Shown here: in pieces, positions 3,770 to 26,121 of the stretch
How the letters are laid out: the number at the start of each line of letters is the position of its first letter
How positions within the stretch are numbered: position 1 is the first letter of the stretch
Source: an uncultured Candidatus Saccharibacteria bacterium
GTDB lineage: Bacteria > Patescibacteriota > Minisyncoccia > Sungbacterales > HO2-52-23
Length of the DNA: 32,741 nucleotides
Assembly (NCBI GenBank): GCA_964357005.1
Contig: CAYHJX010000002.1
Coordinates: forward strand, 1 to 32,741
Reading direction: 5' to 3'
The notes under the pieces: generated by a model
Seen by the model: only the letters and a program-made list of their open reading frames with translations
Databases searched by the model: none
What the model was told of the DNA's origin: nothing
Program-made: the position numbers and the translations under genes

Positions 3770-3774
3770 AATTA

Positions 3775-7784: not shown

Positions 7785-8054
7785 AGTGCAAGCACTTCCT
7801 ATAACAAAACAGGGCAGGTGATAGTTTCGATGAATGAGGATTCTTAACCAAAAAATGTGCTCAAGAATATACCTACAAGCATAAGGGAAACTGCGAAAAG
7901 TTTTTTCGCGATACGCTTTTCCGCAAGAATGCCGCCGCTTAAAAGGACTGCCCACAAAACTATATATGTGACGGATCATAATAAAAAACATTTTATAATC
8001 CTGCATGAATTATAACAAACGTTCTCTAACTGAAATAAACCCTACCATCTTATT

Positions 8055-8154: not shown

Positions 8155-9264
8155 ATGGAGCACGTTGCCCTTATTCTCATGCTTGTTGCTACCTCATGGC
8201 AAGCCATACACGTGGTGCTTGGCGGCAAGGTCGTTAATCCGAATAAAAGGATCCTCACGATACAGGAAAGCATCTGGGTAGGTTCTGGAATCGCGTCGCT
8301 CTTTCTTTTCATAAATGCGGTAACATGGTGGCCGCAATTTGCGCTGGGAAACGGCATGAACGTCGGTCTCAAAAGGATAACGGAGATTTTCGTTATTGCA
8401 ATTTTCTGGACCGCGTTTTTTAACCTCTTCATCCAATACGCGAATCAAAGATCAAAAGAACTTGCACCAGTATCATACGTAGCCCCCTACCAGGGGATGA
8501 CACCGTTTCTGATCTCTTTTGCCTTTATCGTCTTCAAAGAATCGCTAAGTGCTGTCGCGTGGACGGGTATTGGAATCATTGCCTTCACCACGTACGTGCA
8601 CGGCAGAGACGATATGCCGCTCCGGATTCCAAGATCGTACCAAGAGGTAAAACAGTGGGGACTTCCCCTTACTCTCGCATGGCGGCTACCGAAAAACTAC
8701 CGTGAGCTTGCTGCACCCGACAGGGCAAAAGCAGAGAATATGCGCCAAGGCGTCCGGTGGGCAATACTAGCCGCAGTATTAGGCACATTCGGACTTATGG
8801 GAGACGGGCTCCTTGCGCGGCACGGAGACGCCGTACTAGGACTTTCAGCAAAATGGGGACTCGTGACAATATTTTATGCGTTCGTATATCCATACTGGAG
8901 ACGCATGCGAGGTATAGAGGCAAACCCCACAATACTGTTTGAGCCGCTCCGGCGGCGCATAGCGGGAAACTGGAAAACGGTACTCACATACGGGGTCTCG
9001 CTTGCACTTCTTGAGGTTCTCGTCGCAATTGCCTTCCGGGTGGCGCCAGTCGCGCACATCGGCAGCATGAAGCGATTCCACATTGTTCTTGTTGCAATCC
9101 TTGCGTGGGTTTTGCTTGGCGAGAAAAAGAAACGACGAATCGCAACTGCTATCGGATTCGGCGTCGGCACGTTCCTTCTCGGACTTGATCCTCACGCACA
9201 AGCCCATACGCTTAATACCGCCGAGGAATATCTCTTGGCCATCAGAGAATTTTTCTCCCGATAA
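8155..9264 (+). CDS. DMT-superfamily (EamA-like) membrane transporter, 5+5 helices
   Basis: 369-aa ORF. It has two blocks of five hydrophobic helices separated by a hydrophilic loop (HGRDDMPLRIPRSYQEVKQW..APDRAKAENMRQG). Each block ends in an EamA-like segment: FAFIVFKESLSAVAWTGIGIIAF and VAILAWVLLGEKKKRRIATAIGFGVGTFLLG. Confidence 0.5.
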   Translation: MEHVALILMLVATSWQAIHVVLGGKVVNPNKRILTIQESIWVGSGIASLFLFINAVTWWPQFALGNGMNVGLKRITEIFVIAIFWTAFFNLFIQYANQRSKELAPVSYVAPYQGMTPFLISFAFIVFKESLSAVAWTGIGIIAFTTYVHGRDDMPLRIPRSYQEVKQWGLPLTLAWRLPKNYRELAAPDRAKAENMRQGVRWAILAAVLGTFGLMGDGLLARHGDAVLGLSAKWGLVTIFYAFVYPYWRRMRGIEANPTILFEPLRRRIAGNWKTVLTYGVSLALLEVLVAIAFRVAPVAHIGSMKRFHIVLVAILAWVLLGEKKKRRIATAIGFGVGTFLLGLDPHAQAHTLNTAEEYLLAIREFFSR

Positions 9265-9268
9265 CGAA

Positions 9269-9307
9269 ATCCGCGCGCAGCAGCTTGCACGCGGATATTT
9301 TCATTTT
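9269..9307. terminator. Candidate bidirectional intrinsic terminator between convergent genes
   Basis: ATCCGCG (9269-9275) pairs with CGCGGAT (9290-9296), with a 14-nt loop. On the + strand ATTTTCATTTT follows. On the minus strand the same hairpin is followed by TTCGTTAT. It sits in the 57-bp gap between stops 9264 (+) and 9322 (-). Confidence 0.45.
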
Positions 9308-9321
9308 GGGAATCTCTTTCG

Positions 9322-10797
9322 TCACGCCCTTTCTGAATCGTAATCTATACTTATCTGCTTCCATTCAGAATAAAAATCAAGTGCTTGTGTTCCGGGCTCG
9401 CGCCAGCCGTTTCCGGAAAGCCCGACGCCGCCGAAGGGCATATGGGGCTCGGAACCGTGTGTTGGCCCATTTACGCGGACTACTCCTGCATGGTAGCGCC
9501 GCACGAATTCCTCGGCGCGATCGAGTGATGAGGTATGGATTGCGCCCGAGAGCTTGAATTTTGAATCATTCGCAAGGCGAATCGCTTCCTCCAAATTTTT
9601 TACGCGATATAGGACGACGACTGGCCCGAATACTTCTTTTTGCGAAATTTCGTCTTTCGGCGATACTCGTTCAAAAACCGTAGGCGCAATAAAATATCCG
9701 TTTTTATGCGCGTCGTCAGCGAGCCGCATGCCGCCTGCAAGGATCACGCCGCGCCGGCGTTTTGCTCCATCGATTGCGCGTAAAATTTCACGCATGCGCT
9801 TTTCGGAAATAATTGCGCCATAGTCGTCGGTATCCGCAGTGCCGACTTTTAGAGCGCTTACTTTCTGAAGAAAAAGTTTTTTGAACTTTTCATATACTCT
9901 TTCAAAAACGATTATGCGCGACGCGGCAGCGCATCGCTGACCTCCATCAACAAAAGCCGCGTCCACCGCCGTAGACACCGCTCGCTCCAAATCCGCGTCG
10001 TCGCACACCACAAAAGGATTTTTCCCTCCCGCTTCAATCGAAACTTTTGCGAGGCGCGATGCAGTTGCTTTCAAAATCTTTTCTCCGGTTGCGGTTGAGC
10101 CCGTAAGACTTACAAACTCAACGCGCGGATCCGCGACCAAGGGCGCGCCGACATCCGGCCCTGTTCCCTGGAGCACGGAAAGAACTCCCGCGGAAATCCC
10201 CACTTCCTTAAAAACCTTTGCATACCACACCGCGACATACGGAGTATATTCATGCGATTTCATAATAACAGCATTTCCGCACAGAAGCGCGGGAAAAAGT
10301 TTCCATGCGATTCCGGCCGCGGGATTGTTGTAGGGCGTGATAAGCGTGCCGATGCCAACGGGCTCGCGCACAAGAAATACTCGGCGATTCGGCACCGCCG
10401 TAGGAATGACTTCCCCAAAAAACCTTCTGCCTTCTCCTGCAAAGAAAAATCCGCATTCGATCGCGGCCTCCACCTCTCCCAAAGAATGTTTTTTCGATTT
10501 CCCGGATTCTAACGCAACAATTTCCGCAAGTTCCTCTTTTTGCTCTCGCATACGAAGCACCGCTTCTCTCAAGATTTTTGCGCGCTCTACAATAGAAATC
10601 TTAGACCATACATCATATCCTTTTTCTGCTGATCTGATTGCTTTTTCAACGTCTCGAACATTTCCTCGTGCAACCTGGGAAACAATCTCACCGGACGCCG
10701 GATTACATTTCAAAAAAAATTTCCCTCCGGAGGGTCGAACTTCCCGATTATCAATCCAATGAAAAACTTTCTTCGGGTAATGTGTCATATATATCAT
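9322..10797 (-). CDS. NAD(P)+-dependent aldehyde dehydrogenase family protein
   Basis: 491-aa ORF. Motifs: FPALLCGNAVIMKSHEYTP, SLTGSTATGEKI, VSIEAGGKNPFVV (the E-x-G-G-K glutamate box), and DGGQRCAAASRIIV (catalytic Cys context). TAATG stop/start overlap with the upstream GT2 at 10795-10799. Confidence 0.88.
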   Translation of the reverse strand: MIYMTHYPKKVFHWIDNREVRPSGGKFFLKCNPASGEIVSQVARGNVRDVEKAIRSAEKGYDVWSKISIVERAKILREAVLRMREQKEELAEIVALESGKSKKHSLGEVEAAIECGFFFAGEGRRFFGEVIPTAVPNRRVFLVREPVGIGTLITPYNNPAAGIAWKLFPALLCGNAVIMKSHEYTPYVAVWYAKVFKEVGISAGVLSVLQGTGPDVGAPLVADPRVEFVSLTGSTATGEKILKATASRLAKVSIEAGGKNPFVVCDDADLERAVSTAVDAAFVDGGQRCAAASRIIVFERVYEKFKKLFLQKVSALKVGTADTDDYGAIISEKRMREILRAIDGAKRRRGVILAGGMRLADDAHKNGYFIAPTVFERVSPKDEISQKEVFGPVVVLYRVKNLEEAIRLANDSKFKLSGAIHTSSLDRAEEFVRRYHAGVVRVNGPTHGSEPHMPFGGVGLSGNGWREPGTQALDFYSEWKQISIDYDSERA

Positions 10798-11711
10798 TAC
10801 TTCCTCTGAACGATTCGCTTCGCGAGCGAATACACTTCTGGAAAATCAAAAATGATGACGAAAGGAATAATATGTTTCAGAAATCGCGGATACGCATACA
10901 TTAAAAATCCAAACTTCCTCGTTACGGGAATTACGGGAGAACGGAGTATCCGATCAAAAACAATACGCGCATACCGGATATGCCTTGTCCGTTTCCCTCC
11001 TCCATAGGCCTTTCCAACCTCGGGATCATCTTTATAACGCTCTTTGATACTCTTTCGATACATCGTTTTTGAAAATAAAATATCGGGCGCCGAATAAAAA
11101 TGGGTGGAAAGAGCAGCTTCCGCGGCTATAACATGATCAAATTTAATACAGTCGGGATGAGGCCGCCGCATAATACTCTTAAGAAGCGCTGTACGGAAAA
11201 GGCCGAAACTAAGGAAGTAACTCACTTTCGGGCCAGGGAGCAATGCAAGCTTGAACACATCATAATATCCTAACCGCGTAATATCATACTTCCCAATAAA
11301 ATAGAACTCATCCATGAGTACTCCATCGTTGTATACGCGCCGGTAAGAACTCATCGCAACGCCATAATCCGGACGCGCATCAAGTGCCTTCTTCATGGTT
11401 TCAACATATGTCGGGGCCCACCAATCATCGTCGTACGCCCACATGAAATACTCACCCCGCGCCTCCTCGAGAACAAACCGGAAATTATGGAGCTGTCCCA
11501 TATTCTCTTCTTGTCGAATATACCGTACTCTCGGATCGCGCAAGGCATATTCTTTGCATATACGCTCTGTTTCGTCGTCCGAAGCATTATCCGACACAAT
11601 AACCTCTATATGCCGGTACGTTTGCGACAGTAATACATCAAAAATTCGCGGGAGGAACTGCGCACGATTGTATACCGGAAGTCCGATGCTTACAAATCCT
11701 TTAATCTTCAT
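10797..11711 (-). CDS. GT2 (GT-A fold) glycosyltransferase, soluble type
   Basis: 304-aa ORF. Motifs: VSIGLPVYNRAQFLPRIFDVLLSQTY..IEVIVSDNASDDETERIC..YIRQEENMG and FMWAYDDDWW (acidic DxD-type box). No C-terminal TM helices. Confidence 0.8.
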   Translation of the reverse strand: MKIKGFVSIGLPVYNRAQFLPRIFDVLLSQTYRHIEVIVSDNASDDETERICKEYALRDPRVRYIRQEENMGQLHNFRFVLEEARGEYFMWAYDDDWWAPTYVETMKKALDARPDYGVAMSSYRRVYNDGVLMDEFYFIGKYDITRLGYYDVFKLALLPGPKVSYFLSFGLFRTALLKSIMRRPHPDCIKFDHVIAAEAALSTHFYSAPDILFSKTMYRKSIKERYKDDPEVGKAYGGGKRTRHIRYARIVFDRILRSPVIPVTRKFGFLMYAYPRFLKHIIPFVIIFDFPEVYSLAKRIVQRK

Positions 11712-11714
11712 ATC

Positions 11715-12500
11715 CTACCTGATGCGTTTAAGAAATCCTCCGGGTGCCACGGTAACAAATAGCGACTTTTCTATTTTGTTGTCAATAATAAAATTCTTGT
11801 GTGCTTTTACAAATGCCCGCACTGCGGTCATCGGATTATTGCCGATGCCCCACGGGCGCTTTTTTGAATATTCTCGCGGCATGTATTCAACGATTGTATC
11901 ACATGCAACGATATAACTCCCTTTTGTCACAAACGGCGAGTAGAGTTCGAGCTCTTTCAAAACGTGATCATGCGTGTGGTTTGAATCAAGCAACACTAAA
12001 ACAGCTTTTGCTTCGCCGACTTCGCTACGCACGCGGGAAATAACATTCGGCGCTATTGATGACCCTTCAATAAGAGCAATGCGGCGAAATAGTGGGTGTT
12101 TCTCAATAAGCTTCCGATTGTGTCTTCGAATATCAATATCAATACCGATGACCTTTCCCGTTCCAAGAAGCTCACAAAGAGATGCATAAAAGACAAGAGA
12201 ACCGCCATGCGCGATTCCCGTCTCAACAATTACGTCGGGCCGAAGATTAAAGATCATATCCTGCATACGAATCATATCGTACGGATTCTGAATTGCCGGC
12301 ATGCCAAGCCAACGTACCTCGTAATCGAGTTTATTTCGAAGCGCAATCGTGAGCCACCGAATCGCTTCTTGTTTGAGCTTCCTTGTTTCCTTGCGTTTTC
12401 TCCGCAACACAAAACGGGATAGATGCTCGATCTCTTTTTGCGTCGGAAAATGGTATTTCTTAGCCACGGCGCAAAAATGAAACATAATCCTCAACCCCAT
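11715..12500 (-). CDS. Cephalosporin-hydroxylase (CmcI) family methyltransferase, sugar O-methyltransferase-like
   Basis: 261-aa ORF. Motifs: WLGMPAIQNPYDMIRMQDMIFNLRPDVIVETGIAHGGSLVFYASL..GKVIGIDIDIR and VLLDSNHTHDHV, characteristic of PF04989-type proteins. The start is uncertain: ATG 12500 or ATG 12485. Both overlap the 3' end of the upstream gene. Confidence 0.72.
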   Translation of the reverse strand: MGLRIMFHFCAVAKKYHFPTQKEIEHLSRFVLRRKRKETRKLKQEAIRWLTIALRNKLDYEVRWLGMPAIQNPYDMIRMQDMIFNLRPDVIVETGIAHGGSLVFYASLCELLGTGKVIGIDIDIRRHNRKLIEKHPLFRRIALIEGSSIAPNVISRVRSEVGEAKAVLVLLDSNHTHDHVLKELELYSPFVTKGSYIVACDTIVEYMPREYSKKRPWGIGNNPMTAVRAFVKAHKNFIIDNKIEKSLFVTVAPGGFLKRIR

Positions 12501-13329
12501 CCTGCCACGACGGCATCAAAATTCCGAAACCTTCCGCTTTGTGAGAATCAAGCACAGAATAGAGCGGCCTCCGAATACCAGTTGATTCCTCACCGCGCCT
12601 GACAGGAACAAGCTCCTTTTGTATATCCATACGGCGATACACTTCTTTCGCACATTCGTACCAGCTGCACGATCCGCGATTTGCAAGGTGATACAATCCG
12701 GGATCTGCCGATGTTTCCAAAAAAGATAATACCGCGCGAGCAAGATGGTCAGCGTATGTCGGATTTGCGAATTGGTCTTCGGCAACTTCAATTCGATCCT
12801 TTCCTTCTGCTTCCTTCAAAATATTTAAAACAAAATTTCCTTTTTGCGGACTTCCTATTTTCCCTCCGTAGAGTCCGTTTGTCCGAATAATGTATGCGCC
12901 TTCGGGATACATGCTTCTCGCACCATATTCCCCGGCAAGCTTCGTGATGCCGTACATTTGGAGCGGATTCGGAACATCATCTTCGGTGTATGGCGCATTC
13001 TTTCGGCCATCAAATACATAATCAGTGCTGAATGTGACAAACCGAATGCGATGCATCCTTGAGAGTTTCGCGAGATTCCGTACGGCAACGCAATTGACTG
13101 AAAAAGCTTTGACGGATTCTTTTTCGCACAAAGAAACCGCATTATATGCGGCGGTATTTATAAGAATATCCGGCTTTTCGTCCTTAGTCCTCTTCTCTGA
13201 AAGAACTTCATCCGTAATATCAAATTCCTCCCGATTGAAAGAAACTATTGAAAAACGGGAACCGCGACCAGCACGCTCAAAAGCACCCGCCAACTGCCCC
13301 CCTTTTCCAATGACAAGAATTTTTTTCAT
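12460..13329 (-). CDS. NDP-4-keto-6-deoxyhexose 4-reductase (RmlD / dTDP-4-dehydrorhamnose reductase family)
   Basis: I trimmed the start to ATG 13329 (MKKILVIGKGGQLAGAF...). That is 7 nt after the RmlC-like stop, whereas the track start 13449 would overlap that gene by 113 nt. Motifs: INTAAYNAV, FSTDYVFDG, PLQMYGITKLAGE (Y-x-x-x-K). Confidence 0.82.
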   Translation of the reverse strand: MKKILVIGKGGQLAGAFERAGRGSRFSIVSFNREEFDITDEVLSEKRTKDEKPDILINTAAYNAVSLCEKESVKAFSVNCVAVRNLAKLSRMHRIRFVTFSTDYVFDGRKNAPYTEDDVPNPLQMYGITKLAGEYGARSMYPEGAYIIRTNGLYGGKIGSPQKGNFVLNILKEAEGKDRIEVAEDQFANPTYADHLARAVLSFLETSADPGLYHLANRGSCSWYECAKEVYRRMDIQKELVPVRRGEESTGIRRPLYSVLDSHKAEGFGILMPSWQDGVEDYVSFLRRG

Positions 13330-13336
13330 GCATTTC

Positions 13337-13861
13337 TCAAAAAAGCGGCCATGACCCATCCTTTTCGCTCGCCAAAGGATGCTCGATTGGCCATGTGATT
13401 TGGAATACCGGATCGTTCCATCGGACTCCTGACGCGCATTCGGGAACATAGAACTCGGACATCAAATATTGAACCTCGCAATCATCGGTAAGCGTCTGAA
13501 AACCATGCGCAAAACCCCTTGGAATATAAAACAGTTTTTTCTCATCACCTTTCAGTTCTACTGCATACCATTTTCCAAACGTCGGCGAGCTATCTCGTAA
13601 GTCAAGCGCAACATCATAAATCGCTCCTTTCACGCACTGGACAATTTTATCCTCCTCCTTCGGAGGCCGCTGAAAATGCATTCCCCGGATAGTTCCCTTT
13701 TTTGCAGTAAAGGAGATACTCGCCTGTACAATGTCAAATCGGATGCCGTGTTTCTCAAATTCGTTCTTGCAAAAAATACGCGTAAAATATCCCCGGGGAT
13801 CTCCGCGGAGCTCCGACTCTATCACAAATAATCCGTTAAGTGGTGTAGATAAAAAAATCAT
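13337..13861 (-). CDS. NDP-4-keto-6-deoxyhexose 3,5-epimerase (RmlC cupin family)
   Basis: 174-aa ORF. Motifs: GDPRGYFTRIFCKNEF, GTIRGMHFQ, KIVQCVKGAIYDVALDLR, FYIPRGFAHGFQTL, VRWNDP. These are the canonical RmlC blocks. Confidence 0.88.
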   Translation of the reverse strand: MIFLSTPLNGLFVIESELRGDPRGYFTRIFCKNEFEKHGIRFDIVQASISFTAKKGTIRGMHFQRPPKEEDKIVQCVKGAIYDVALDLRDSSPTFGKWYAVELKGDEKKLFYIPRGFAHGFQTLTDDCEVQYLMSEFYVPECASGVRWNDPVFQITWPIEHPLASEKDGSWPLF

Positions 13862-13866
13862 CGACG

Positions 13867-15081
13867 CTAGACTATTTTTACTTTCGGGACAGGAATAATA
13901 AATTTTCCTCCTCTTCGGCGAAACAATTCCAATTCTTTCATGGCAAGCACTTCAGGATAAATATTCCAACAAAGGACGATAAGATAATCAGGATGCATTT
14001 CGGTAATCTTGTCGAGTCCAAACACTTTCATATGAGTCCCGGGCGTGTAGAGTCCTTGTTTTGCGGGAGATTTGTCAACAATATAGTCGAGGTAATTTTT
14101 CCCGATACCGAAATAATTAAGAAGTATATTTCCTTTTGCAGGCGCGCTGTATGCGGCAATCCTTTTCCCGGTACTCGTTAAGTCCTGCAGTAACGAAATA
14201 AGTTCTTTCCGTGCTTTTTCTGCTTTCGCGCGAATGAGCGAATATGTTTCACTTTTGTCGTATCCCCGATCATACTCTTGATGGAAGAATGACGTTAACC
14301 GTTCGCTCTCTGGAAATATCCCCTCATGCGAAACAAAAATCCTCACTGATCCGCCCTGCATATCTACCATATGGGCGTCGTAAAGCGCAAGACCCGCATG
14401 TGCGAAAAGATTCCTCAATGCGAGAAGCGAATAGTAAAATACATGTTCATGGTAAATCGTATCAAACTTGCCCTCGAAAAGACCTTCAATATAGGGAAAT
14501 TCAAATACCGCGGAGCCATGCGGCGCAAGGACGATTTTTACTCCCTCCACAAAATCACGGATCAAAGGAACATGGGCAAGCACGTTTACGCCGAAAAAAA
14601 GATCTGCCCGAATTCCTTTTTCGGAAAGCCGGCGTGCAAGGGCGGCGGTAAAAAATTCAGGAATCGTTTCAATTCCGCCTTTATTCGCAATCTTCGCAAT
14701 ATTTTCCGCCGGATCAATACCGAGTGTTCGCACGCAAAGCGCCTTGAATTCCCGCAAAAGCACGCCGTCATTACTTCCCGCCTCGACAACTAAATGATCT
14801 TTGGTGAGGCCAAATCGTTCCGAAAGGGTTGATGCGGTTTTCTTCGAATGCTCGACTACCGTGGCAGAGACAGACGATGCATAGAGGTATGTTCGAAAAA
14901 GTTCTTCCGGCGGGACGGCATCAACAAGCTGCACTAAAAAACAGGACGGGCAAAAGCCGACCTCCAATGGATATCTTTTTTCGTGTACCAGTTCTCTCTC
15001 GCCGAGAAACGAGTTTACAAGTGGCATCGTTCCGAGCGAGAAAAATGGAGTTATCTTCAATTCACACGATCGACAATCCAT
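13867..15081 (-). CDS. NDP-hexose C-methyltransferase (TylC3 / NovU-type; Zn-ribbon + class I SAM MT + C-MT C-terminal domain)
   Basis: I trimmed the start to ATG 15081 (MDCRSCELKITPFFSLGTMPLVNSFL..GFCPSCFLVQL, a C-x-x-C...C-x-x-C zinc-ribbon domain). That is 5 nt after the RfbG stop. The SAM core is LVVEAGSNDGVLL, and the C-terminal part ends VLCWNIYPEV. Confidence 0.78.
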   Translation of the reverse strand: MDCRSCELKITPFFSLGTMPLVNSFLGERELVHEKRYPLEVGFCPSCFLVQLVDAVPPEELFRTYLYASSVSATVVEHSKKTASTLSERFGLTKDHLVVEAGSNDGVLLREFKALCVRTLGIDPAENIAKIANKGGIETIPEFFTAALARRLSEKGIRADLFFGVNVLAHVPLIRDFVEGVKIVLAPHGSAVFEFPYIEGLFEGKFDTIYHEHVFYYSLLALRNLFAHAGLALYDAHMVDMQGGSVRIFVSHEGIFPESERLTSFFHQEYDRGYDKSETYSLIRAKAEKARKELISLLQDLTSTGKRIAAYSAPAKGNILLNYFGIGKNYLDYIVDKSPAKQGLYTPGTHMKVFGLDKITEMHPDYLIVLCWNIYPEVLAMKELELFRRRGGKFIIPVPKVKIV

Positions 15082-15086
15082 GGAAA

Positions 15087-16172
15087 TCAGGAGAAAAATG
15101 CTGCAATATTTTTTTCGACAAGCGCCTCTGGCGATGCATGGCCACCATAGTAGTCCGTATACCAATTGACAGTGGTTCGAATGGCATCATCAATAACAAA
15201 CCGCGGCCTCCACCCCAAAAGGTCTCGGGCGCGTGAGGAATCCAATGTAAGAACTGGGGCTTCTCGCAATGATGCATCGGGAACAACTTCATATTCGCCT
15301 TTCCCGAGAATCGAAAAAACCTTTTTTACAACATCCTCTACGGAAACGAAACTTTCTTCGCTCGGACCGAAATTCCACGCGCCAACCGCCTTTGTATCGC
15401 CGGTATACAAGAGTTGCGAAAGAAGAAGATAGCCATGGAGCGGCTCAAGAACATACTGCCAGGGACGGATGGAAAGCGGGTTTCGTATCACTACTTTTTC
15501 TTTCTTTTCGTACACCGATCGAAGAATATCCGGGAAAAGACGGTCTTTTCCCCAATCGCCACCTCCAATAACATTTCCCGCGCGGACCACGGCGCCGAGC
15601 GTCCGATGTGTTTTTCCAAAATTATCAGGATGAAAATACGACTCTATGTAGGCGTTCGCGGCAATATCTGCTGCGGCCTTGCTCGCGCTATACGGATCAT
15701 GGCCCCCCAAAGGATTATTCTCCTTATACGGATCTGTTCCTTGAGAATCGTCATAGACCTTATCGGTTGTCACAACAACAAACGCGCGAAGTGACCCCGC
15801 TCTTCGCGCCGCCTCAAGAACATTCACCGTTCCCATGACATTGGTGGAAAACGTGGCAAGCGGATCTCGATATCCTTCCCTCACAAGCGGCTGCGCGGCA
15901 AGATGAAAAATAATCTCCGGCTTTTCCTTACGGAGAATATCGTACACAGGAATAAAATCCCGTATGTCAGCAAAATGATTCCTTATGTTTTCTCTGAGGC
16001 CTACCAGATCAAATAAATTCGGAGTGGTGTCTGGAAGAAGCGAAATCCCGGAAACGTCTGCGCCCCATCGGTGCAACACAGAAGCGAGCCACCCCCCCTT
16101 AAAGCCGGTATGCCCGGTGATGAGAATTTTTTTCCGGGCGAAAAATTTTTTCAATTCATCCATAGACATCAT
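15087..16172 (-). CDS. rfbG: CDP-glucose 4,6-dehydratase
   Basis: Motifs: KILITGHTGFKGGWLASVLHRWGADVSGISL, PYSASKAAADIAANAY (Y-x-x-x-K), RAGNVIGGGDW. I chose ATG 16172 as the start because it forms an ATGA overlap with the rfbF stop. The track GTG start at 16190, or ATG at 16181, 16169 or 16163, are also possible. Confidence 0.88.
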   Translation of the reverse strand: MMSMDELKKFFARKKILITGHTGFKGGWLASVLHRWGADVSGISLLPDTTPNLFDLVGLRENIRNHFADIRDFIPVYDILRKEKPEIIFHLAAQPLVREGYRDPLATFSTNVMGTVNVLEAARRAGSLRAFVVVTTDKVYDDSQGTDPYKENNPLGGHDPYSASKAAADIAANAYIESYFHPDNFGKTHRTLGAVVRAGNVIGGGDWGKDRLFPDILRSVYEKKEKVVIRNPLSIRPWQYVLEPLHGYLLLSQLLYTGDTKAVGAWNFGPSEESFVSVEDVVKKVFSILGKGEYEVVPDASLREAPVLTLDSSRARDLLGWRPRFVIDDAIRTTVNWYTDYYGGHASPEALVEKNIAAFFS

Positions 16173-16936
16173 GCTTCCCATACTGCCCACGGCCGCCCCT
16201 CACCCCACAACCGATTTAAATCCTCCATTTCCGTATAGGTATCCATTGACTTCCAAAATCCGGTATGCTCATACACGGAAAGCTCGTTATCCTGTATGAG
16301 CCGTGGAAACGCATTTTCCATGGGCCCGGCATCAAAATAGTCAAATGCTTTTTTGCTAAACACCATGAATCCGCCGTTTACGTAGTCATTCACCATTGGT
16401 TTTTGCTGGAATCCAGTCGCGCGCCTCGACGATCGATCAATCGTGATGATACCGTATTTCGAATACGGATGCACCGCAGTAAGCGTCGCAAGCGTACCCT
16501 GATTTCTATGAAATCGAACAAGATCCTGAATATCAATGTCACCGACCGCGTCGCCGTACGTCACCATAAATTCATCCTCGGTGATATATTTTTTCGTTTG
16601 CAAAAGTCGCTCGCCTGTGATGGTTTCAAGCCCTGTATCCGCGAACGTAATTTTAAAATCGTCGAAATTGCCCGTATTATGGAAATCAATTTCATTCCGC
16701 GCGTGATGAAGAGTAAAATCGTTTGAAAATGCCCGATGATTCAGGAAATATTCCTTTACCATGTTTCCTTTATACCCAAGAGCAAGCACAAAGCGACTAA
16801 ACCCATAATGGGAGTAAATCTTCATAATATGCCAGAGCATGGGTCGCCCCCCAATTTCCACCATTGGTTTTGGCTTGAATTCTGTTTCTTCCTTCATGCG
16901 GGTTCCTCGCCCGCCGCAGAGAATAATTGTCTTCAT
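16169..16936 (-). CDS. rfbF: Glucose-1-phosphate cytidylyltransferase
   Basis: 255-aa ORF. MKTIILCGGRGTRMKEETEFKPKPMVEIGGRPMLWHIMKIYSHYGFSRFVLALGYKG and the C-terminal HTGFWKSMDTYTEMEDLNRLW match my memory of RfbF/DdhA closely. Size is also typical. Confidence 0.92.
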   Translation of the reverse strand: MKTIILCGGRGTRMKEETEFKPKPMVEIGGRPMLWHIMKIYSHYGFSRFVLALGYKGNMVKEYFLNHRAFSNDFTLHHARNEIDFHNTGNFDDFKITFADTGLETITGERLLQTKKYITEDEFMVTYGDAVGDIDIQDLVRFHRNQGTLATLTAVHPYSKYGIITIDRSSRRATGFQQKPMVNDYVNGGFMVFSKKAFDYFDAGPMENAFPRLIQDNELSVYEHTGFWKSMDTYTEMEDLNRLWGEGRPWAVWEA

Positions 16937-16970
16937 ATGATGTGAATGTTTGTATAAAGATTACTCATAT

Positions 16971-17801
16971 TTACCGTGCAGTCCACCCGCCATCGATAAT
17001 AAGTGTCGCGCCCGTCATATAGGAAGAGGCCGCATGGGAGGCGAGAAAAAGGATTGCGCCGTTATATTCGTGGGGTTCTGCCATACGCCCCACAATGGTT
17101 CGCTTTGCATACTCTTTTTCGAAAACACCGTCTTGATGCGCCCGAACGCCGCCGGGAACAAGCGTATTTACGCGGATGGGAATTTTCTTGCTGCCGCAAT
17201 ACTCCGCAAGCCACCGCGTGAAATTAAGAACTCCCGATTTCGCAACACTATACGCCACAGGTTTATAGAAATCTTCACCGCCCCGCCTTCGAAACTCGTA
17301 GAGCGACTGGTCCGGAGCAACTACTCCGTAGTGAGAGGATATATTAATGATGCTTCCCTTTTTGCCTGTTGGACCGATACGCCGGAGAAACTCTTGTGAT
17401 ACAAAAAACATTCCTTTCAAATGCGAATCAATCACCAGATCCCACGCTCCTTCGGGGTAGTCCTCAAACGGACCGTTGTCTTCGGCAGGCGCATCCGGCC
17501 GGATATCAATGCCTGCATTATTTATAAGAATTGTCGGAGTGCCCCATTTTTCCTCGACCTCATCAAAACCTCGTTTCACATCGCTCTTTTTTGTGATATC
17601 GACAATATGAAGCGATGTGCGCCTCGCATCAATGAGAGGAGAAACAATATGATTCATTGCATGTTTGATATCAAAAATCGCGACTCCGGCTCCGGCGCTG
17701 GAAAGCGCTTGTACATACTGACTACCCAATAACCCAAGACCCCCGGTAACCACGGCGACTTCTCCCGTAAGATCACAATATGGTGGAGCTGTCTGCTTCA
17801 T
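16971..17801 (-). CDS. Short-chain dehydrogenase/reductase (classical SDR)
   Basis: 276-aa ORF. Motifs: VAVVTGGLGLLGSQ (T-G-x3-G-x-G), INNAGI, ISSHYG, YSVAKSGVLNFTRWLA (Y-x-x-x-K), IRVNTLVPGG. Confidence 0.85.
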   Translation of the reverse strand: MKQTAPPYCDLTGEVAVVTGGLGLLGSQYVQALSSAGAGVAIFDIKHAMNHIVSPLIDARRTSLHIVDITKKSDVKRGFDEVEEKWGTPTILINNAGIDIRPDAPAEDNGPFEDYPEGAWDLVIDSHLKGMFFVSQEFLRRIGPTGKKGSIINISSHYGVVAPDQSLYEFRRRGGEDFYKPVAYSVAKSGVLNFTRWLAEYCGSKKIPIRVNTLVPGGVRAHQDGVFEKEYAKRTIVGRMAEPHEYNGAILFLASHAASSYMTGATLIIDGGWTAR

Positions 17802-17807
17802 ACAGAA

Positions 17808-18563
17808 TCAAGAAAAAAACTCATTAGGGTTTTCTTTCCACCTCTCCCAAAGTTTCTCTGCAATAAAGAAATCAATCGGAGCATCTATGTCAATCGCGCG
17901 CGCCTGCGGAATCACGTGATACTTCACCCGCTCGCCGGTAAGAGAGTTAAAATCTTTTATCACCCGTGTCCAACAAGCAATGACATTCGCCCGGAAATAT
18001 GCTTTCGCATAATTTTGACGGAGACCCGGAGTAACATCGCGACTGCTCTCGGTGATATAGGTGACAAGGCGCGCGCCACCCCCGCCGTCATCAATAATCT
18101 TCATGGCTTTATGGGGATGCTGGCGCGCTTCGGCAACAACAAGCGAAGAATGCGTATCTGTATCTTCAATAAGCCGCCCGATACACTGGTCAATATCGCC
18201 TGATGTCTGGAACGGAGTCGTCGGCACAAGGCGAAGAACGATGTCAGGCGCATACCCTTCATTTTTCTCAAGCCATCCGAGCGCATGGATAATATATTCA
18301 AGATCCGTCGAGTGGTCGCCGGCAATCTCTTTGGGGCGCAAAAAAGGAACCTCTGCTCCATACCGCCTCGCGATCGCGGCATATTTCTCGGAATCAGTCG
18401 AAACGATTACGCGATTCACGTACTGAGAATTTCGCGCGGCTTCAATAATCCACGCCATGAGGGGTTTGCCCCCAAGTTCTTTTATATTTTTATCAGGCAC
18501 CCCCCGTGAACCGGAACGCGCGCCAACAAGAGCCAAAATTTTAAGGTGGAGATTTCTATCCAT
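17808..18563 (-). CDS. Acylneuraminate (CMP-nonulosonate/ulosonate) cytidylyltransferase family, copy 1
   Basis: 251-aa ORF. Motifs: ALVGARSGSRGVPDKNIKELGGKPLMAWIIEAA..VIVSTDSEKYAAIARRYGAEVPFLRPKEIAGDHS, the CTP_transf_3 signature. There is no C-terminal esterase domain. Confidence 0.85.
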   Translation of the reverse strand: MDRNLHLKILALVGARSGSRGVPDKNIKELGGKPLMAWIIEAARNSQYVNRVIVSTDSEKYAAIARRYGAEVPFLRPKEIAGDHSTDLEYIIHALGWLEKNEGYAPDIVLRLVPTTPFQTSGDIDQCIGRLIEDTDTHSSLVVAEARQHPHKAMKIIDDGGGGARLVTYITESSRDVTPGLRQNYAKAYFRANVIACWTRVIKDFNSLTGERVKYHVIPQARAIDIDAPIDFFIAEKLWERWKENPNEFFS

Positions 18564-18614
18564 ACATTATATAACGATAAAACCGCATTCCTCGTTTTTT
18601 GGATGGCCCGGGAA

Positions 18615-19967
18615 TCAAATAAGCGAGTTGAGTGCGGCAAATACGCGCTCACCTGTTTTTCCGTCAATCGGCCCGACGAGATCCGATACGATCTGGGATC
18701 TCCCCTCTTTATGAAGCGCAGGATCGTGAAGATATCCCGTAACGGCATAGATCAATTCTGATTCAGTTTTGACCCTCCATACGCCTCCGGTCTTCTGGAC
18801 ATAGAGATAATGGGTCGTATGGTCAAGCGCAAACGAAAGACGGTTATGAAGAGGAACTTTCAAGTCGTCGGCTCCATTAAATCCAACAAGGACAACCGGC
18901 CTATTGAAAATTGCGGACTCAAGGGACATTGTAGATCCTAAATTTATGTTTACATCGGTCCAGCGCACAAGATTTAAAAGAAGCTTCATGTCTTCTTTTT
19001 GATACGTAAAGTTTTTTCCAAAATCGAGTATAGGCACTCCTTCGATCTTCTTGTCCGAACCCAAGGGATCAGTCGGATGCGCGCGCACCGCGAGAAGCGC
19101 ATGAGAAAACAACCCGCGCTCGCTTGCGCGCATAAGCATTTCAAGATGATCGGTATATGTTTCCTCGGCGAGAACAACCGTGGGAAGGCCTCCCGTATAA
19201 TACACAATCCACTTCTTTGTGGGGTCAAGTCCGATCATGCGCGCGGTTTCTTCCTTTGTCATGTGCCATGAAGAATCCCGATAGTGGGAAAACTGCGCAA
19301 ATCCGACTACCCGTATGCGCTCAGGAGAAACATCGTTCCACATGATTGCTTCGCGGCGCATAATTTCGTTTTGTACCAAGAGGATGTTGGGAATGATCCG
19401 CAAGAGCAATTTTGTGCTGAAATTGTCCCAGCTCCGCACCATGCCGACCGATGGAATACCCCTCCGTTTTGCCTGCTTTAAAAATATAGTATCCTCTTCA
19501 ATCATGAGCGACGGGGCAAATACCACATCGGGCCGATACCGATCAAAGTAGATCGCCCACACGCGATCTTCAAAAAAGAATCGGTATTCGATGAATCGCA
19601 GTATTTCCCGCCACACCTTTAGATGACCGAGAAACCAACAAAGACGCCTTCCCATAAACCCGGAAAAAGAACCCCCGCTCCGGTACGTTGCGAGCTGGCG
19701 AATCCACATGGATTCAGTCGGAATACTTGCAAGCGCGATCATGCGAAATATTTTTTTTGCGACTTGCCGATCCATTCCGAAATCCGGAACCGGTTCAACA
19801 ATACAGCGCTCATTCGCAAAATCTCTCCGATGGGTTTCCAAACTGTCTGGAGATACAAATACCACGAGCCGCACCGCAGGATCGTTCTTCACCAAGGAAT
19901 AAAAATCGCCCCGCAGGAAGTTTTTTACCTCCACATTATGAGGCGCGTTCAGAAAAAATGTCTTCAT
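18615..19967 (-). CDS. Unassigned GT-B-like protein, paralogue A of a three-member family (TagF / NeuC / sialyltransferase-like motifs)
   Basis: I trimmed the start to ATG 19967 (MKTFFLNAPH...), 4 nt after the NeuB-like stop. It is collinear with 24063..25433 and 26150..27547. Shared blocks: FDRYRPDVVF, AKRRGIPSVGMVRSWDNFS, LLVQNE, VVGF, GLDPTKK, RAHP (His codon 19077-19079), LGSTMSLESA, GPIDGKTGERV. Confidence 0.6.
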   Translation of the reverse strand: MKTFFLNAPHNVEVKNFLRGDFYSLVKNDPAVRLVVFVSPDSLETHRRDFANERCIVEPVPDFGMDRQVAKKIFRMIALASIPTESMWIRQLATYRSGGSFSGFMGRRLCWFLGHLKVWREILRFIEYRFFFEDRVWAIYFDRYRPDVVFAPSLMIEEDTIFLKQAKRRGIPSVGMVRSWDNFSTKLLLRIIPNILLVQNEIMRREAIMWNDVSPERIRVVGFAQFSHYRDSSWHMTKEETARMIGLDPTKKWIVYYTGGLPTVVLAEETYTDHLEMLMRASERGLFSHALLAVRAHPTDPLGSDKKIEGVPILDFGKNFTYQKEDMKLLLNLVRWTDVNINLGSTMSLESAIFNRPVVLVGFNGADDLKVPLHNRLSFALDHTTHYLYVQKTGGVWRVKTESELIYAVTGYLHDPALHKEGRSQIVSDLVGPIDGKTGERVFAALNSLI

Positions 19968-19971
19968 GCCA

Positions 19972-21069: not shown

Positions 21070-21178
21070 GCTTTGGTTTTCTGCTCTTGTATAATAAAAC
21101 AGAGGGCGCAGAGAAAAGGTTTTCGGTGGCGCTTATTCAGCATGCATGTGCGCCTTCTCATGCATACGCTATACGCTC

Positions 21179-21763: not shown

Positions 21764-21772
21764 ACAAGGGTA

Positions 21773-25437: not shown

Positions 25438-26121
25438 TCAGCTCTTCTTGATTACAAAATATTTTCTTGCTTTTTCGTCATAATCAATGCGGTACGGCGT
25501 CCCTCGAAAGAATTCATCAATTGCTTTTGTGGCTCCGGGCCATCGGGGACTTTTGTATTCGTCGAACAAGATTACGCCCCCGTTGGCAACTTGTGGAAAG
25601 AATTTCTTAAGCACCGCGCGATACGACTCATAGAGATCCACATCAATATGCAACAGTGCAATGGGGCCGCCATCGTACGAATCAACCGTATTCTCAAAAA
25701 ATCCCTTAACGAGCCTCACGTTCTTTGTGAGAAATACGGGGGAAATCCTCGCGGTCATCAAAATCTGCTTAATATCGTCAATTGATGTCCCTGACCATTC
25801 TCCTTTCTTTGGATTACGGACACTATCGTCTTCTTTTGCTGGTTCGGGAAAACCCTCAAACGAATCAAAACCCCACACCATGCGATTCCGCCCCTCCATT
25901 TCAGCAAACGAAGAAAGGAATAAAAATGTTGTCCCTCTCCCTACTCCGCATTCAACAATAGCCCCATCGACAGCTCGGATATTCTCATACATCTTTCCCA
26001 TATACAGAATCTGCGTGATTCGCCGTACCGTAAGGGGAATTTCCTTTTCGGAACTTTTTTTCACATCATATCCAAATGCACCAATAACTTTCTTGATTAT
26101 CTTTTTTAGCATCATACGCAC
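25438..26121 (-). CDS. TylF / macrocin-O-methyltransferase family SAM-dependent (sugar) O-methyltransferase
   Basis: 227-aa ORF. Motifs: GAIVECGVGRGTTFLFLSS, VWGFDSFEGFPEP, LLHIDVDLYESYRAVLKKFFPQVANGGVILFDEY. These are the metal-binding D-x-D and SAM motifs typical of the TylF/NovP class. Confidence 0.8.
   Translation of the reverse strand: MRMMLKKIIKKVIGAFGYDVKKSSEKEIPLTVRRITQILYMGKMYENIRAVDGAIVECGVGRGTTFLFLSSFAEMEGRNRMVWGFDSFEGFPEPAKEDDSVRNPKKGEWSGTSIDDIKQILMTARISPVFLTKNVRLVKGFFENTVDSYDGGPIALLHIDVDLYESYRAVLKKFFPQVANGGVILFDEYKSPRWPGATKAIDEFFRGTPYRIDYDEKARKYFVIKKS

What the first reader, a model, noticed from the sequence alone, without database searches (positions are those of the whole stretch)
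12460..16936. CDP-linked (not dTDP-linked) C-methyl 6-deoxyhexose pathway: noviose/vinelose-like gene set
Five consecutive genes encode Glc-1-P cytidylyltransferase (rfbF), CDP-glucose 4,6-dehydratase (rfbG), a TylC3/NovU-type NDP-hexose C-methyltransferase, an RmlC-type 3,5-epimerase and an RmlD-type 4-ketoreductase. The enzyme set matches dTDP-noviose biosynthesis (NovV/T/W/U/S). It also covers the early steps of mycarose-type 3-C-methyl sugars. Here, however, it is wired to CDP-glucose, and no RmlA/RmlB is present.

CDP-hexose pathways are classically associated with 3,6-dideoxyhexoses, which need RfbH/E1 and E3. Both are absent here. A CmcI-type methyltransferase follows immediately at 11715..12500, and a TylF/NovP-type O-methyltransferase lies at 25438..26121.

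The only CDP-activated C-methyl, O-methyl 6-deoxyhexose I recall is CDP-vinelose (6-deoxy-3-C-methyl-2-O-methyl-L-talose) from Azotobacter. To my knowledge its genes are not established. This block is a plausible genetic solution for such a sugar.
Basis: partly seen in the sequence, partly recalled or inferred. Interest (0 to 1): 0.7.

Follow-up and report, generated by a model that had tools for sequence, protein, structure and literature searches.

The report
CDP-linked 3-C-methyl-L-deoxyhexose sugar operon
Five tightly packed genes, plus an O-methyltransferase and a glycosyltransferase beside them, most likely build a rare branched (C-methyl) 6-deoxy-L-sugar on a CDP carrier; this extends the already characterised Bacillus cereus CDP-cereose pathway rather than being a new kind of chemistry.

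Summary
On the minus strand, 12460-16936 holds a glucose-1-phosphate cytidylyltransferase (RfbF), a CDP-glucose 4,6-dehydratase (RfbG), a TylC3-family sugar C-methyltransferase, an RmlC-type epimerase and an RmlD-type 4-ketoreductase. The genes are separated by 7 bases or fewer, or overlap. A CmcI-type methyltransferase and a GT2 glycosyltransferase follow directly. The window has no RmlA, RmlB, E1 or E3.

The set is not a chance neighbourhood:
- Ten species-level genomes, mostly Patescibacteria, carry the same five genes in the same order, and eight of them also carry the CmcI gene.
- The C-methyltransferase falls in a clade of cytidylyltransferase-linked enzymes (bootstrap 95/100). That clade includes a Bacillus operon laid out like the B. 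cereus CDP-cereose operon.
- The RmlC homologue falls in a clade linked to RfbF and the C-methyltransferase, apart from RmlA-linked RmlCs (192/200).

It also missed that Sinorhizobium meliloti carries a comparable set with LPS phenotypes. The new element here is the L-series extension. The predicted product is CDP-3-C-methyl-L-rhamnose or its 4-epimer (the vinelose skeleton), probably 2-O-methylated.

The vinelose link is chemically coherent but untested. A 5-C (noviose-like) route is not excluded. I rate this a new variant of a known kind, of moderate interest.

The parts
16169..16936 (-). Glucose-1-phosphate cytidylyltransferase (RfbF/DdhA type), 255 aa. Step 1: Glc-1-P + CTP gives CDP-glucose.
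   Evidence: TIGR02623 gives 275 bits, just under the cut-off of 300. It aligns end to end with 1tzf, E 4e-65. It is 44% identical to the first gene of the Bacillus cereose-type operon in L081. Homologues lie next to 25 of 27 close C-methyltransferase loci.
15087..16178 (-). CDP-glucose 4,6-dehydratase (RfbG/DdhB type), about 363 aa. Step 2: gives CDP-4-keto-6-deoxy-D-glucose.
   Evidence: TIGR02622 gives 429 bits against a cut-off of 278. It scores 338 bits against 1wvg/1rkx and 83 bits against the best dTDP-glucose dehydratase. The TTDK and YSASK motifs are visible in the translation. It was called as 363 aa on the twin contig.
13867..15081 (-). SAM-dependent NDP-hexose C-methyltransferase (TylC3/TcaB9/MtmC family), 404 aa. 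Step 3: most likely 3-C-methylation of the CDP-4-ketosugar.
   Evidence: It has PF08421 and PF08484. MtmC (4rv9) matches at E 6e-78, with the CxxC...CxxC zinc motif and the FDTIYHEH motif conserved. It falls in the cytidylyltransferase-linked clade with the Bacillus, S. meliloti and Brachyspira enzymes, bootstrap 95/100. The 404-aa form is the one on record.
13337..13861 (-). RmlC-type cupin epimerase, 174 aa. Step 4: C5 epimerisation of the 3-C-methyl 4-ketosugar (C3 is then quaternary), giving the L-lyxo 4-ketosugar.
   Evidence: TIGR01221 gives 184 bits against a cut-off of 156. His62, Lys72, Tyr132 and Asp168 are invariant in the alignment with E. coli RfbC. Its clade is linked to RfbF and the C-methyltransferase and spans several phyla, separate from RmlA-linked RmlCs, bootstrap 192/200.
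12460..13329 (-). RmlD-type NAD(P)H 4-ketoreductase, 289 aa. Step 5: gives CDP-6-deoxy-3-C-methyl-L-hexose (manno by default, talo possible).
   Evidence: TIGR01214 gives 253 bits against a cut-off of 224. The start at Met41 of the long ORF is confirmed by the 289-aa protein on record. The STDYVF and YGITK (YxxxK) motifs align with E. coli RfbD. It is present in 12 of 27 close loci.
11715..12500 (-). CmcI / rhamnosyl O-methyltransferase family protein. Probable O-methylation of the new sugar; position 2 is inferred from the family.
   Evidence: PF04989 matches with E 2e-83 and NF045824 (rhamnosyl O-methyltransferase) with E 8e-28, below its cut-off. It is syntenic in 15 of 27 close loci. It is 48% identical to the S. 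meliloti cephalosporin-hydroxylase-family protein that I map by gene order to SMb21425.
10797..11711 (-). GT2 glycosyltransferase. Candidate transferase for the C-methyl sugar.
   Evidence: PF00535 matches with E 2e-29. Homologues (28-46% identical) lie downstream of the CmcI gene in eight related loci. They follow it within about 300 bases in L005, L017, L019, L028 and L029, and at 0.8-1.8 kb in L021, L026 and L032.
9269..9296 (-). Terminator-like hairpin that probably ends the minus-strand transcription unit.
   Evidence: It is the strongest terminator-like site in 9000-18800 (11 pairs, 7 G-C) and sits just after the ALDH gene at 9322-10797. This is a pattern match only.

Best explanation
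The five genes form one operon-encoded pathway that makes a CDP-activated 6-deoxy-3-C-methyl-L-hexose.

Proposed steps:
1. RfbF makes CDP-glucose.
2. RfbG makes CDP-4-keto-6-deoxy-D-glucose.
3. The C-methyltransferase deprotonates C3 next to the 4-keto group and adds a methyl from SAM. As in the B. cereus CDP-cereose route, this inverts the C3 hydroxyl.
4. The RmlC-type enzyme can now only epimerise C5. The product is the 3-C-methyl analogue of 4-keto-L-rhamnose.
5. The RmlD-type enzyme reduces C4. The product is CDP-3-C-methyl-L-rhamnose or, if hydride comes from the other face, the L-talo epimer.
6. The adjacent CmcI-family methyltransferase most likely O-methylates it, probably at O2, either on the nucleotide sugar or after transfer.
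7. The adjacent GT2 transfers it into a surface glycan. The rest of the contig builds that glycan from nonulosonic acids and other sugars.

Shown here: the enzyme family assignments, the CDP-type first two steps, catalytic residues and motifs conserved where I checked them (RfbG, the C-methyltransferase, RmlC, RmlD), the recurrent synteny, and the co-clustering of the C-methyltransferase and RmlC with cytidylyltransferase-linked relatives.

Inferred: the carbon that is methylated, the order of steps 3 and 4, the C4 stereochemistry, the O-methylation position and the acceptor.
For: -
- The genes are tightly packed on one strand.
- E. coli RmlA finds nothing in the window, and RmlB finds only RfbG at 27%. 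Within 10 kb of the close relatives the only RmlA/RmlB-type genes are in L037 (both) and L041 (an RmlB-type dehydratase).
- RmlA appears next to the distant C-methyltransferases of Myxococcales, which group with MtmC.
- Ten species-level genomes repeat the five-gene set.
- The C-methyltransferase clade that is linked to cytidylyltransferases has bootstrap 95/100 and contains the Bacillus homologue of the cereose operon.
- The RmlC clade linked to RfbF and the C-methyltransferase spans Patescibacteria, Rhizobiales, Brachyspira, Legionellaceae, Omnitrophota and Balneolaceae. It is separate from RmlA-linked RmlCs, 192/200.
- The characterised CDP-cereose/cillose enzymes are listed in PMC7725333.
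- S. meliloti has rfbF-rfbG-C-methyltransferase and, 8 kb away, CmcI-SDR-acyltransferase-rfbC.
- In S. meliloti, ddhB and smb21425 mutants have altered LPS, and ddhA, ddhB, smb21425-27 and rmlC mutants are polymyxin-sensitive (PMC5539429).
- 3-C-methyl-rhamnose is a known O-antigen sugar (PMC7203242).
Against: - There is no biochemical evidence for any of these proteins.
- The RmlC and RmlD homologues pass NCBI's equivalog cut-offs for the dTDP enzymes, and their best solved relatives are canonical dTDP-rhamnose enzymes. Sequence alone does not show CDP specificity.
- RfbF is slightly below its curated cut-off.
- The contig is only 32.7 kb, so RmlA and RmlB could lie elsewhere in the genome.
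- No 5-C-methyltransferase (NovU, CloU) was available for the tree, so 3-C versus 5-C rests on proximity to the Bacillus enzyme.
- The related loci were all found through the C-methyltransferase, so the trees have a biased sample.
- The RmlD clade contains almost only uncultured, mostly Patescibacteria, genomes and may reflect taxonomy.
Confidence: 0.6

Rival explanations
1. There are two pathways side by side. RmlC, RmlD and the CmcI-type rhamnosyl O-methyltransferase serve ordinary dTDP-L-rhamnose (and 2-O-methyl-rhamnose), with RmlA and RmlB encoded off-contig. RfbF, RfbG and the C-methyltransferase make a separate D-series CDP sugar, as in B. cereus.
For: RmlC and RmlD exceed the dTDP equivalog cut-offs, and their closest solved structures are true RmlC and RmlD. 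The CmcI family is annotated as rhamnosyl O-methyltransferase. The contig is short.
Against: - The CDP branch would then lack a 4-ketoreductase. The window has no homologue of the Bacillus Q81B30-type reductase. The neighbouring classical SDR at 16971-17801 is not conserved with the cassette.
- RmlC and RmlD recur directly after the C-methyltransferase. Among the close loci, only L037 (RmlA and RmlB) and L041 (an RmlB-type dehydratase) have such genes within 10 kb.
- The RmlC clade follows the cytidylyltransferase and C-methyltransferase across phyla and is separate from RmlA-linked RmlCs, 192/200.
Confidence: 0.13
2. The route is a noviose-like 5-C-methyl one on CDP. The RmlC-type enzyme first epimerises C3, the methyltransferase methylates C5, and the RmlD-type enzyme reduces C4. 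The product would be CDP-5-C-methyl-L-rhamnose.
For: The enzyme family set is the same as NovW/NovU/NovS (established knowledge). In one relative (L002) the cassette is followed by a carbamoyltransferase and a TylF-type O-methyltransferase, the decorations seen on noviose.
Against: The methyltransferase sits in the clade that contains the Bacillus homologue of the only characterised CDP-dependent enzyme, which is a 3-C-methyltransferase. All solved relatives are 3-C enzymes. The gene order matches methylate-then-epimerise. NovU was not in the comparison, so this is not excluded.
Confidence: 0.12
3. The nucleotide carrier is not CDP. The RfbF-like enzyme, which is below its family cut-off, activates glucose-1-phosphate with another NTP, and the downstream enzymes follow.
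For: The TIGR02623 score of 275 is under the curated 300. A subset of related cassettes pair the same transferase with a different, shorter dehydratase of about 314 aa.
Against: RfbF aligns end to end with the CTP-specific Salmonella enzyme 1tzf, E 4e-65, and the next best structure scores only 74 bits. The partner dehydratase is unambiguously of the CDP-glucose type. RfbF is 44% identical to the Bacillus operon's first gene.
Confidence: 0.05

Closest known systems
CDP-cereose / CDP-cillose pathway of Bacillus cereus ATCC 14579 (Q81B33, Q81B32, Q81B31, Q81B30; Li et al. 2017, J Biol Chem 292:7636; listed in PMC7725333)
   Same: The first three steps match: a glucose-1-phosphate cytidylyltransferase, a CDP-glucose 4,6-dehydratase and a TylC3-family C-methyltransferase acting on the CDP-4-ketosugar. 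The window's proteins are 44%, 43% and 41% identical to a Bacillus operon of the same layout. The methyltransferases share a clade.
   Different: Bacillus goes straight to an SDR 4-reductase (Q81B30 type) and makes D-gulo/D-allo sugars. The window has no such reductase. It inserts an RmlC-type epimerase and an RmlD-type reductase instead, which predicts an L-series product. It also adds a CmcI-type O-methyltransferase.
dTDP-L-mycarose and dTDP-L-nogalose type routes (3-C-methyltransferase such as TylC3, then a 5-epimerase such as TylK, then a 4-ketoreductase) - from my own knowledge of these pathways
   Same: The chemical logic and the enzyme families are the same: 3-C-methylation of a 4-ketosugar, C5 epimerisation by an RmlC homologue, then 4-ketoreduction. 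Nogalose is a permethylated 3-C-methyl-L-rhamnose, the skeleton predicted here.
   Different: Those routes are dTDP-linked (RmlA/RmlB), belong to actinomycete antibiotic clusters, and mycarose is 2-deoxygenated. Here the carrier is CDP, the 2-hydroxyl is kept, and the setting is a cell-surface glycan island.
Sinorhizobium meliloti pSymB ddhA-ddhB-SMb21418 plus SMb21425-SMb21428 (rmlC)
   Same: The components are RfbF, RfbG, C-methyltransferase, RmlC and a CmcI-family protein, 39-48% identical to the window's. There is genetic evidence for a role in LPS and in polymyxin/NCR247 tolerance (PMC5539429).
   Different: The genes are split into two loci 8 kb apart. The reductase is an unrelated 280-aa SDR, 21% identical to the window's RmlD. 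An acyltransferase is present. I found no report of the sugar's structure. Assigning the CmcI-family gene to SMb21425 is my inference from gene order.
   Same: The carrier is CDP and the sugar is 6-deoxy, 3-C-methyl, L-series and O-methylated. The predicted intermediate (L-lyxo-4-ulose) can give the talo configuration.
   Different: An RmlD-type reductase by default predicts L-manno, not L-talo. No Azotobacter sequence could be examined, and the paper library has no hit for 'vinelose'.
dTDP-L-noviose pathway (NovV/T/W/U/S)
   Same: It uses the same five enzyme families in the abstract sense.
   Different: It is dTDP-linked and methylates C5. The window's methyltransferase groups with 3-C enzymes.

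Membership tests
CDP-3-C-methyl-6-deoxyhexose (cereose-type) pathway | A glucose-1-phosphate cytidylyltransferase starts the pathway. | tested here: met
   TIGR02623 gives 275 bits, slightly under the cut-off of 300. 1tzf matches at E 4e-65 over the full length. It is 44% identical to the Bacillus operon gene.
CDP-3-C-methyl-6-deoxyhexose (cereose-type) pathway | A CDP-glucose 4,6-dehydratase is present. | tested here: met
   TIGR02622 gives 429 bits against 278. It scores 338 bits against 1wvg/1rkx.
CDP-3-C-methyl-6-deoxyhexose (cereose-type) pathway | The C-methyltransferase belongs to the same lineage as the characterised CDP-dependent enzyme. | tested here: met
   It shares a clade with the Bacillus homologue (L081), bootstrap 95/100. 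I did not verify that L081 is identical to Q81B31; only the operon layout and the protein lengths match.
CDP-3-C-methyl-6-deoxyhexose (cereose-type) pathway | A Q81B30-type 4-reductase acts directly after methylation, giving a D-gulo/D-allo product. | tested here: not met
   The Bacillus reductase finds no homologue in the window by tblastn. An RmlC-type epimerase and an RmlD-type reductase take that place.
CDP-3-C-methyl-6-deoxyhexose (cereose-type) pathway | Methylated CDP-hexose products have been demonstrated. | not testable with these tools
   This needs enzyme assays with LC-MS and NMR.
dTDP-L-rhamnose pathway (RmlABCD) | RmlA thymidylyltransferase and RmlB dTDP-glucose dehydratase are present. 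| tested here: not met
   E. coli RmlA has no hit in the window, and RmlB hits only RfbG at 27%. They could still lie off-contig.
dTDP-L-rhamnose pathway (RmlABCD) | RmlC and RmlD sequence family membership. | tested here: met
   TIGR01221 gives 184 against 156 and TIGR01214 gives 253 against 224. However, the RmlC falls outside the RmlA-linked clade, 192/200.
3,6-dideoxyhexose pathways (abequose, tyvelose, ascarylose) | E1 (RfbH/AscC) dehydrase and E3 (AscD) reductase are present. | tested here: not met
   No large ORF carries these families. The DegT protein at 2663-3769 scores 153 bits against RfbH (cut-off 423) and scores higher against ArnB and PseC models, though below their cut-offs too.
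Noviose-type 5-C-methyl pathway (NovWUS) | The C-methyltransferase is of the 5-C (NovU/CloU) lineage. | not tested
The nearest characterised relatives are all 3-C enzymes.
Noviose-type 5-C-methyl pathway (NovWUS) | The carrier is dTDP. | tested here: not met
   The first two enzymes are of the CDP type.
L-mycarose/L-nogalose type logic (3-C-methylation, 5-epimerisation, 4-reduction) | A C-methyltransferase, an RmlC-family epimerase and a 4-ketoreductase are encoded together. | tested here: met
   The three are consecutive genes, in that order, with catalytic residues conserved.
L-mycarose/L-nogalose type logic (3-C-methylation, 5-epimerisation, 4-reduction) | Methylation occurs at C3 and the product is L-configured. 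| not testable with these tools
   This needs product NMR.

The most novel reading that the evidence does not exclude
The cassette (RfbF, RfbG, C-methyltransferase, RmlC-type, RmlD-type, CmcI-type methyltransferase) is the genetic basis for CDP-6-deoxy-3-C-methyl-2-O-methyl-L-hexoses. That would be CDP-vinelose or its 4-epimer, a nucleotide sugar known since the 1960s with no assigned genes. On this reading the cassette also defines CDP-specific lineages of RmlC and RmlD, which Patescibacteria, rhizobia and Brachyspira use for their surface glycans.
Probability: 0.3. Interest if true: 0.6.

Novelty: new variant of a known kind. Interest (0 to 1): 0.42.

Why it matters
If confirmed, this would add an L-series branch to the small set of known CDP-sugar pathways. 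The 2020 census in PMC7725333 lists seven with established pathways: 6-deoxygulose, ascarylose, abequose, paratose, tyvelose, cereose and cillose.

It would also show that RmlC- and RmlD-type enzymes annotated as dTDP-rhamnose enzymes can belong to a CDP route. That affects automated annotation, because both proteins pass the dTDP equivalog cut-offs.

It would give a candidate gene set for vinelose-type sugars and for the 3-C-methyl-rhamnose seen in some O-antigens.

It would point to a surface sugar that recurs in ultra-small groundwater Patescibacteria, whose envelopes are barely characterised. S. meliloti offers a tractable organism in which to test the idea.

Tried and rejected
- A literature search for 'vinelose' gave no paper. 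Searches for 'CDP-3-C-methyl', for 'CDP-4-keto-6-deoxy' with 'C-methyl', and for '3-C-methyl' with '6-deoxy' and 'cytidylyltransferase' also gave none.
- The key paper, Li et al. 2017 (PMC5418060), and Campbell et al. 2003 (PMC161594) are not held. I relied on papers that cite them and on the PMC7725333 supplement.
- The Azotobacter vinelandii genome could not be reached. A paper search for Azotobacter with the cytidylyltransferase returned two papers that did not look relevant from title and abstract, and I did not open them.
- I could not name the source organism. The cluster look-up returned no names or accessions. The only clue is the twin ENA contig from the Hainich H41 groundwater 0.1 um fraction, together with mostly Patescibacteria relatives.
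- The promoter scan was uninformative: 13 sites found against 13.3 expected.
- I considered and rejected a role for the TylF-type methyltransferase at 25438-26121 in this sugar. It lies 9 kb away between TagF-like genes, and only three distinct related loci (L002, L013, L051) have weak homologues, 28-31% identical.
- I considered and rejected the classical SDR at 16971-17801 as the pathway reductase, because it is not conserved with the cassette.
- I did not use structure prediction or fold search, because sequence-level assignments were unambiguous.

Full report
**What is in the window**

The window is one whole 32.7-kb metagenome-assembled contig. An ENA twin contig comes from the 0.1-um fraction of Hainich well H41 groundwater. 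From 32518 down to 9322, every long ORF lies on the minus strand.

- RfbF, 16169-16936. TIGR02623 gives 275 bits, just under the cut-off of 300. It aligns over its full length with the Salmonella cytidylyltransferase 1tzf at E 4e-65, and the next structure scores only 74 bits.
- RfbG, 15087-16178. TIGR02622 gives 429 bits against 278. It scores 338 bits against the CDP-glucose dehydratases 1wvg and 1rkx, and 83 bits against the best dTDP-glucose dehydratase. The TTDK and YSASK motifs are present.
- C-methyltransferase, 13867-15081. It is a 404-aa protein with the PF08421 zinc domain and the PF08484 domain. Its best solved relatives are the sugar 3-C-methyltransferases MtmC, KijD1 and TcaB9, and the FDTIYHEH motif is conserved.
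- RmlC-type epimerase, 13337-13861. TIGR01221 gives 184 bits against 156. His62, Lys72, Tyr132 and Asp168 are invariant.
- RmlD-type reductase, 12460-13329. TIGR01214 gives 253 bits against 224. The real start is Met41 of the long ORF, which gives the 289-aa protein on record. The STDYVF and YxxxK motifs are present.

Neighbouring genes are separated by 7 bases or fewer, or overlap. A CmcI / rhamnosyl-O-methyltransferase family gene (11715-12500, PF04989, E 2e-83) and a GT2 gene (10797-11711) follow directly. The strongest terminator-like hairpin in the region sits after the next gene, at 9296-9269.

**Checking the negative claims**

E. coli RmlA finds nothing in the window. RmlB finds only RfbG, at 27% identity. 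No ORF carries E1 or E3 families. The one DegT-family protein scores well below the RfbH cut-off and scores higher against ArnB and PseC models.

**Is the gene set more than a chance neighbourhood?**

A profile of the C-methyltransferase found 74 loci in one genome per species. I ran tblastn of the window's proteins against those loci. Among the 27 close relatives (C-methyltransferase at least 48% identical) with enough flanking DNA:

| Gene | Loci with it, same strand, within 9 kb |
|---|---|
| RfbF | 25 |
| RfbG-like dehydratase | 20 |
| RmlC | 20 |
| RmlD | 12 |
| CmcI-type gene | 15 |

Among all 42 close loci, ten genomes carry the complete five-gene set, and eight of those also carry CmcI. 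A GT2 homologue lies downstream of CmcI in eight related loci, within about 300 bases in five of them. Nearly all of these genomes are Patescibacteria (Staskawicz-, Lipton-, Magasanik-, Falkow-, Gottesmanbacteria and Paceibacterota).

A canonical RmlA occurs only in L037 and next to distant C-methyltransferases (36-39% identical) from Myxococcales. An RmlB-type dehydratase (39-40% identical to E. coli RmlB) lies in L037 and L041.

**Trees**

In a neighbour-joining tree of the C-methyltransferases, one clade holds the enzymes that sit next to a cytidylyltransferase. It contains the window, the Patescibacteria group, Bacillus, S. meliloti, Brachyspira, Rhizobium and Legionellaceae. It separates from MtmC and the RmlA-linked enzymes with bootstrap 95/100.

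The RmlC homologues behave the same way. Those linked to RfbF and the C-methyltransferase form a clade that spans several phyla. The RmlA-linked ones (E. coli and three Myxococcales loci) split off with 192/200.

The RmlD homologues also separate from RmlA-linked ones. That clade is almost entirely uncultured, mostly Patescibacteria, so taxonomy may explain it.

These are distance trees on a sample that was chosen through the C-methyltransferase, and should be read with that in mind.

**What is already known**

A CDP-linked 3-C-methyl-6-deoxyhexose route has in fact been worked out in Bacillus cereus ATCC 14579. The census paper PMC7725333 treats CDP-cereose and CDP-cillose as sugars with established pathways that differ only in the last C4-reductase step. 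Its supplement lists Q81B33 (cytidylyltransferase, 255 aa), Q81B32 (CDP-glucose 4,6-dehydratase, 351 aa), Q81B31 (nucleotide-sugar C-methyltransferase, 407 aa) and Q81B30 (CDP-6-deoxyhexose 4-reductase, 302 aa) among its reference enzymes. The source is Li et al. 2017, J Biol Chem 292:7636 (reference seen). The paper itself is not held, so further details are from my recollection.

A Bacillus chromosome in the plasmid collection (L081) has four consecutive ORFs of 255, 359, 407 and 307 aa. The window's first three enzymes are 44%, 43% and 41% identical to the first three of them. The window has no homologue of the fourth, the Bacillus reductase.

The same combination is annotated in cultured bacteria:
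- S. meliloti pSymB carries rfbF-rfbG-C-methyltransferase. Eight kb away it carries a CmcI-family gene, an SDR, an acyltransferase and rfbC.
- In S. meliloti, ddhB and smb21425 mutants have altered LPS. Mutants in ddhA, ddhB, smb21425-27 and rmlC are less competitive under polymyxin B (PMC5539429).
- Rhizobium sp. Y9 and the Brachyspira hyodysenteriae plasmid carry related sets.

**Mechanism**

Steps 1 and 2 give CDP-4-keto-6-deoxy-D-glucose.

In the Bacillus route the methyltransferase produces a sugar that ends as 3-C-methyl-6-deoxy-gulose or -allose. This means the C3 hydroxyl is inverted relative to glucose. The inference follows from the product names and is my own.

If the window's enzyme does the same, C3 becomes quaternary and the RmlC-type enzyme can only invert C5. 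The product then has the L-lyxo configuration. That is the 3-C-methyl analogue of 4-keto-L-rhamnose, the natural substrate shape for an RmlD-type reductase.

Reduction gives CDP-3-C-methyl-L-rhamnose, or the L-talo epimer if the hydride comes from the other face.

This is the logic of the dTDP-L-mycarose and L-nogalose routes, moved to CDP and keeping the 2-hydroxyl (own knowledge).

From my own knowledge, the characterised mycobacterial member of the CmcI family methylates O2 of a rhamnosyl residue. A 2-O-methyl derivative is therefore the likeliest final form. That would be vinelose if the configuration is talo, or its 4-epimer if manno.

3-C-methyl-rhamnose itself is known in O-antigens of Burkholderia andropogonis and Azorhizobium caulinodans (PMC7203242).

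**Rivals**

1. RmlC and RmlD may be ordinary dTDP-rhamnose enzymes, with RmlA and RmlB off-contig. Their HMM scores and closest structures favour this. Against it, the CDP branch would lack a reductase, the synteny recurs almost always without RmlA or RmlB, and the RmlC clade tracks the cytidylyltransferase.
2. The route may be a noviose-like 5-C-methylation. It is not excluded, because no NovU-type sequence was available. The nearest characterised enzymes are all 3-C.
3. The carrier may be a different nucleotide. This is unlikely given.

**Verdict**

The chemistry is an extension of a characterised pathway rather than a new kind. The vinelose link stays an attractive but untested hypothesis.

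Noticed in passing
window 17808-23097 and 30727-32518: The contig carries two nonulosonic-acid modules. One has a pseudaminic acid synthase above its cut-off (30727-31800, TIGR03586, 432 bits) next to a PIG-L deacetylase (31811-32518). The other has a second NeuB-like synthase (19972-21069), a KdsC / Kdn-9-phosphate-phosphatase-like HAD protein (21773-22339) and two PseF-like cytidylyltransferases (17808-18563 and 22327-23097)..
   Followed up: partly
window 24063-29117: Two TagF-like (Glyphos_transf) proteins flank the TylF-type methyltransferase, and a fused ABC exporter lies upstream. This suggests a teichoic-acid-like or capsule-like polymer. The TylF gene probably belongs to that polymer, not to the C-methyl sugar.
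   Followed up: no
window 624-8006: A fused transketolase-like protein of 708 aa has an N-terminal extension of about 100 aa (5880-8006). It sits in the glycan island near a DegT aminotransferase (2663-3769), a GFO/IDH/MocA oxidoreductase (624-1640), a GT2, a methyltransferase and a PMT_2 membrane protein. It may serve a two-carbon branched or amino sugar.
   Followed up: no
window 8155-9264 (+), 18615-20045, 23171-23965, 29347-30711: Four long ORFs (264-476 aa) inside the glycan island have no Pfam match. The two that were also scanned against NCBIfam (18615-20045 and 29347-30711) have no match there either.
   Followed up: no
L002 9067-10011, also L004, L007, L008, L009, L014, L015, L020, L027, L028, L031, L038: In a subset of the Patescibacteria cassettes, RfbG is replaced by a shorter dehydratase of about 314 aa. 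It is only 29-37% identical to RfbG and 26-33% to E. coli RmlB, yet the cytidylyltransferase beside it (where the contig includes it) is still 47-65% identical to the window's. This may be a third class of NDP-glucose 4,6-dehydratase.
   Followed up: partly
L002 8324-19463 (Paceibacterota, 813-kb contig): Here the cassette lacks the RmlD type and has a 357-aa SDR instead. A carbamoyltransferase, a hexapeptide acyltransferase and a TylF-type methyltransferase follow, which are noviose-like decorations.
   Followed up: no
L082 6524-10209 (Brachyspira hyodysenteriae 33-kb plasmid): The gene order is rfbF, radical SAM protein, RmlC-family protein, C-methyltransferase. This is a CDP-linked C-methyl sugar set with an extra radical SAM enzyme on the plasmid of a pig pathogen.
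   Followed up: no
L079 7148-10221 and L084 11543-14369 (S. meliloti pSymB): S. meliloti has a split version of the pathway. Mutants in ddhA, ddhB, smb21425-27 and rmlC are less competitive under polymyxin B, and ddhB and smb21425 mutants have altered LPS (PMC5539429). I found no report that names the sugar.
   Followed up: partly
window 9322-10797: An aldehyde dehydrogenase gene overlaps the GT2 stop codon by one base and is the last gene before the terminator-like hairpin. It is not conserved in the related cassettes.
   Followed up: no
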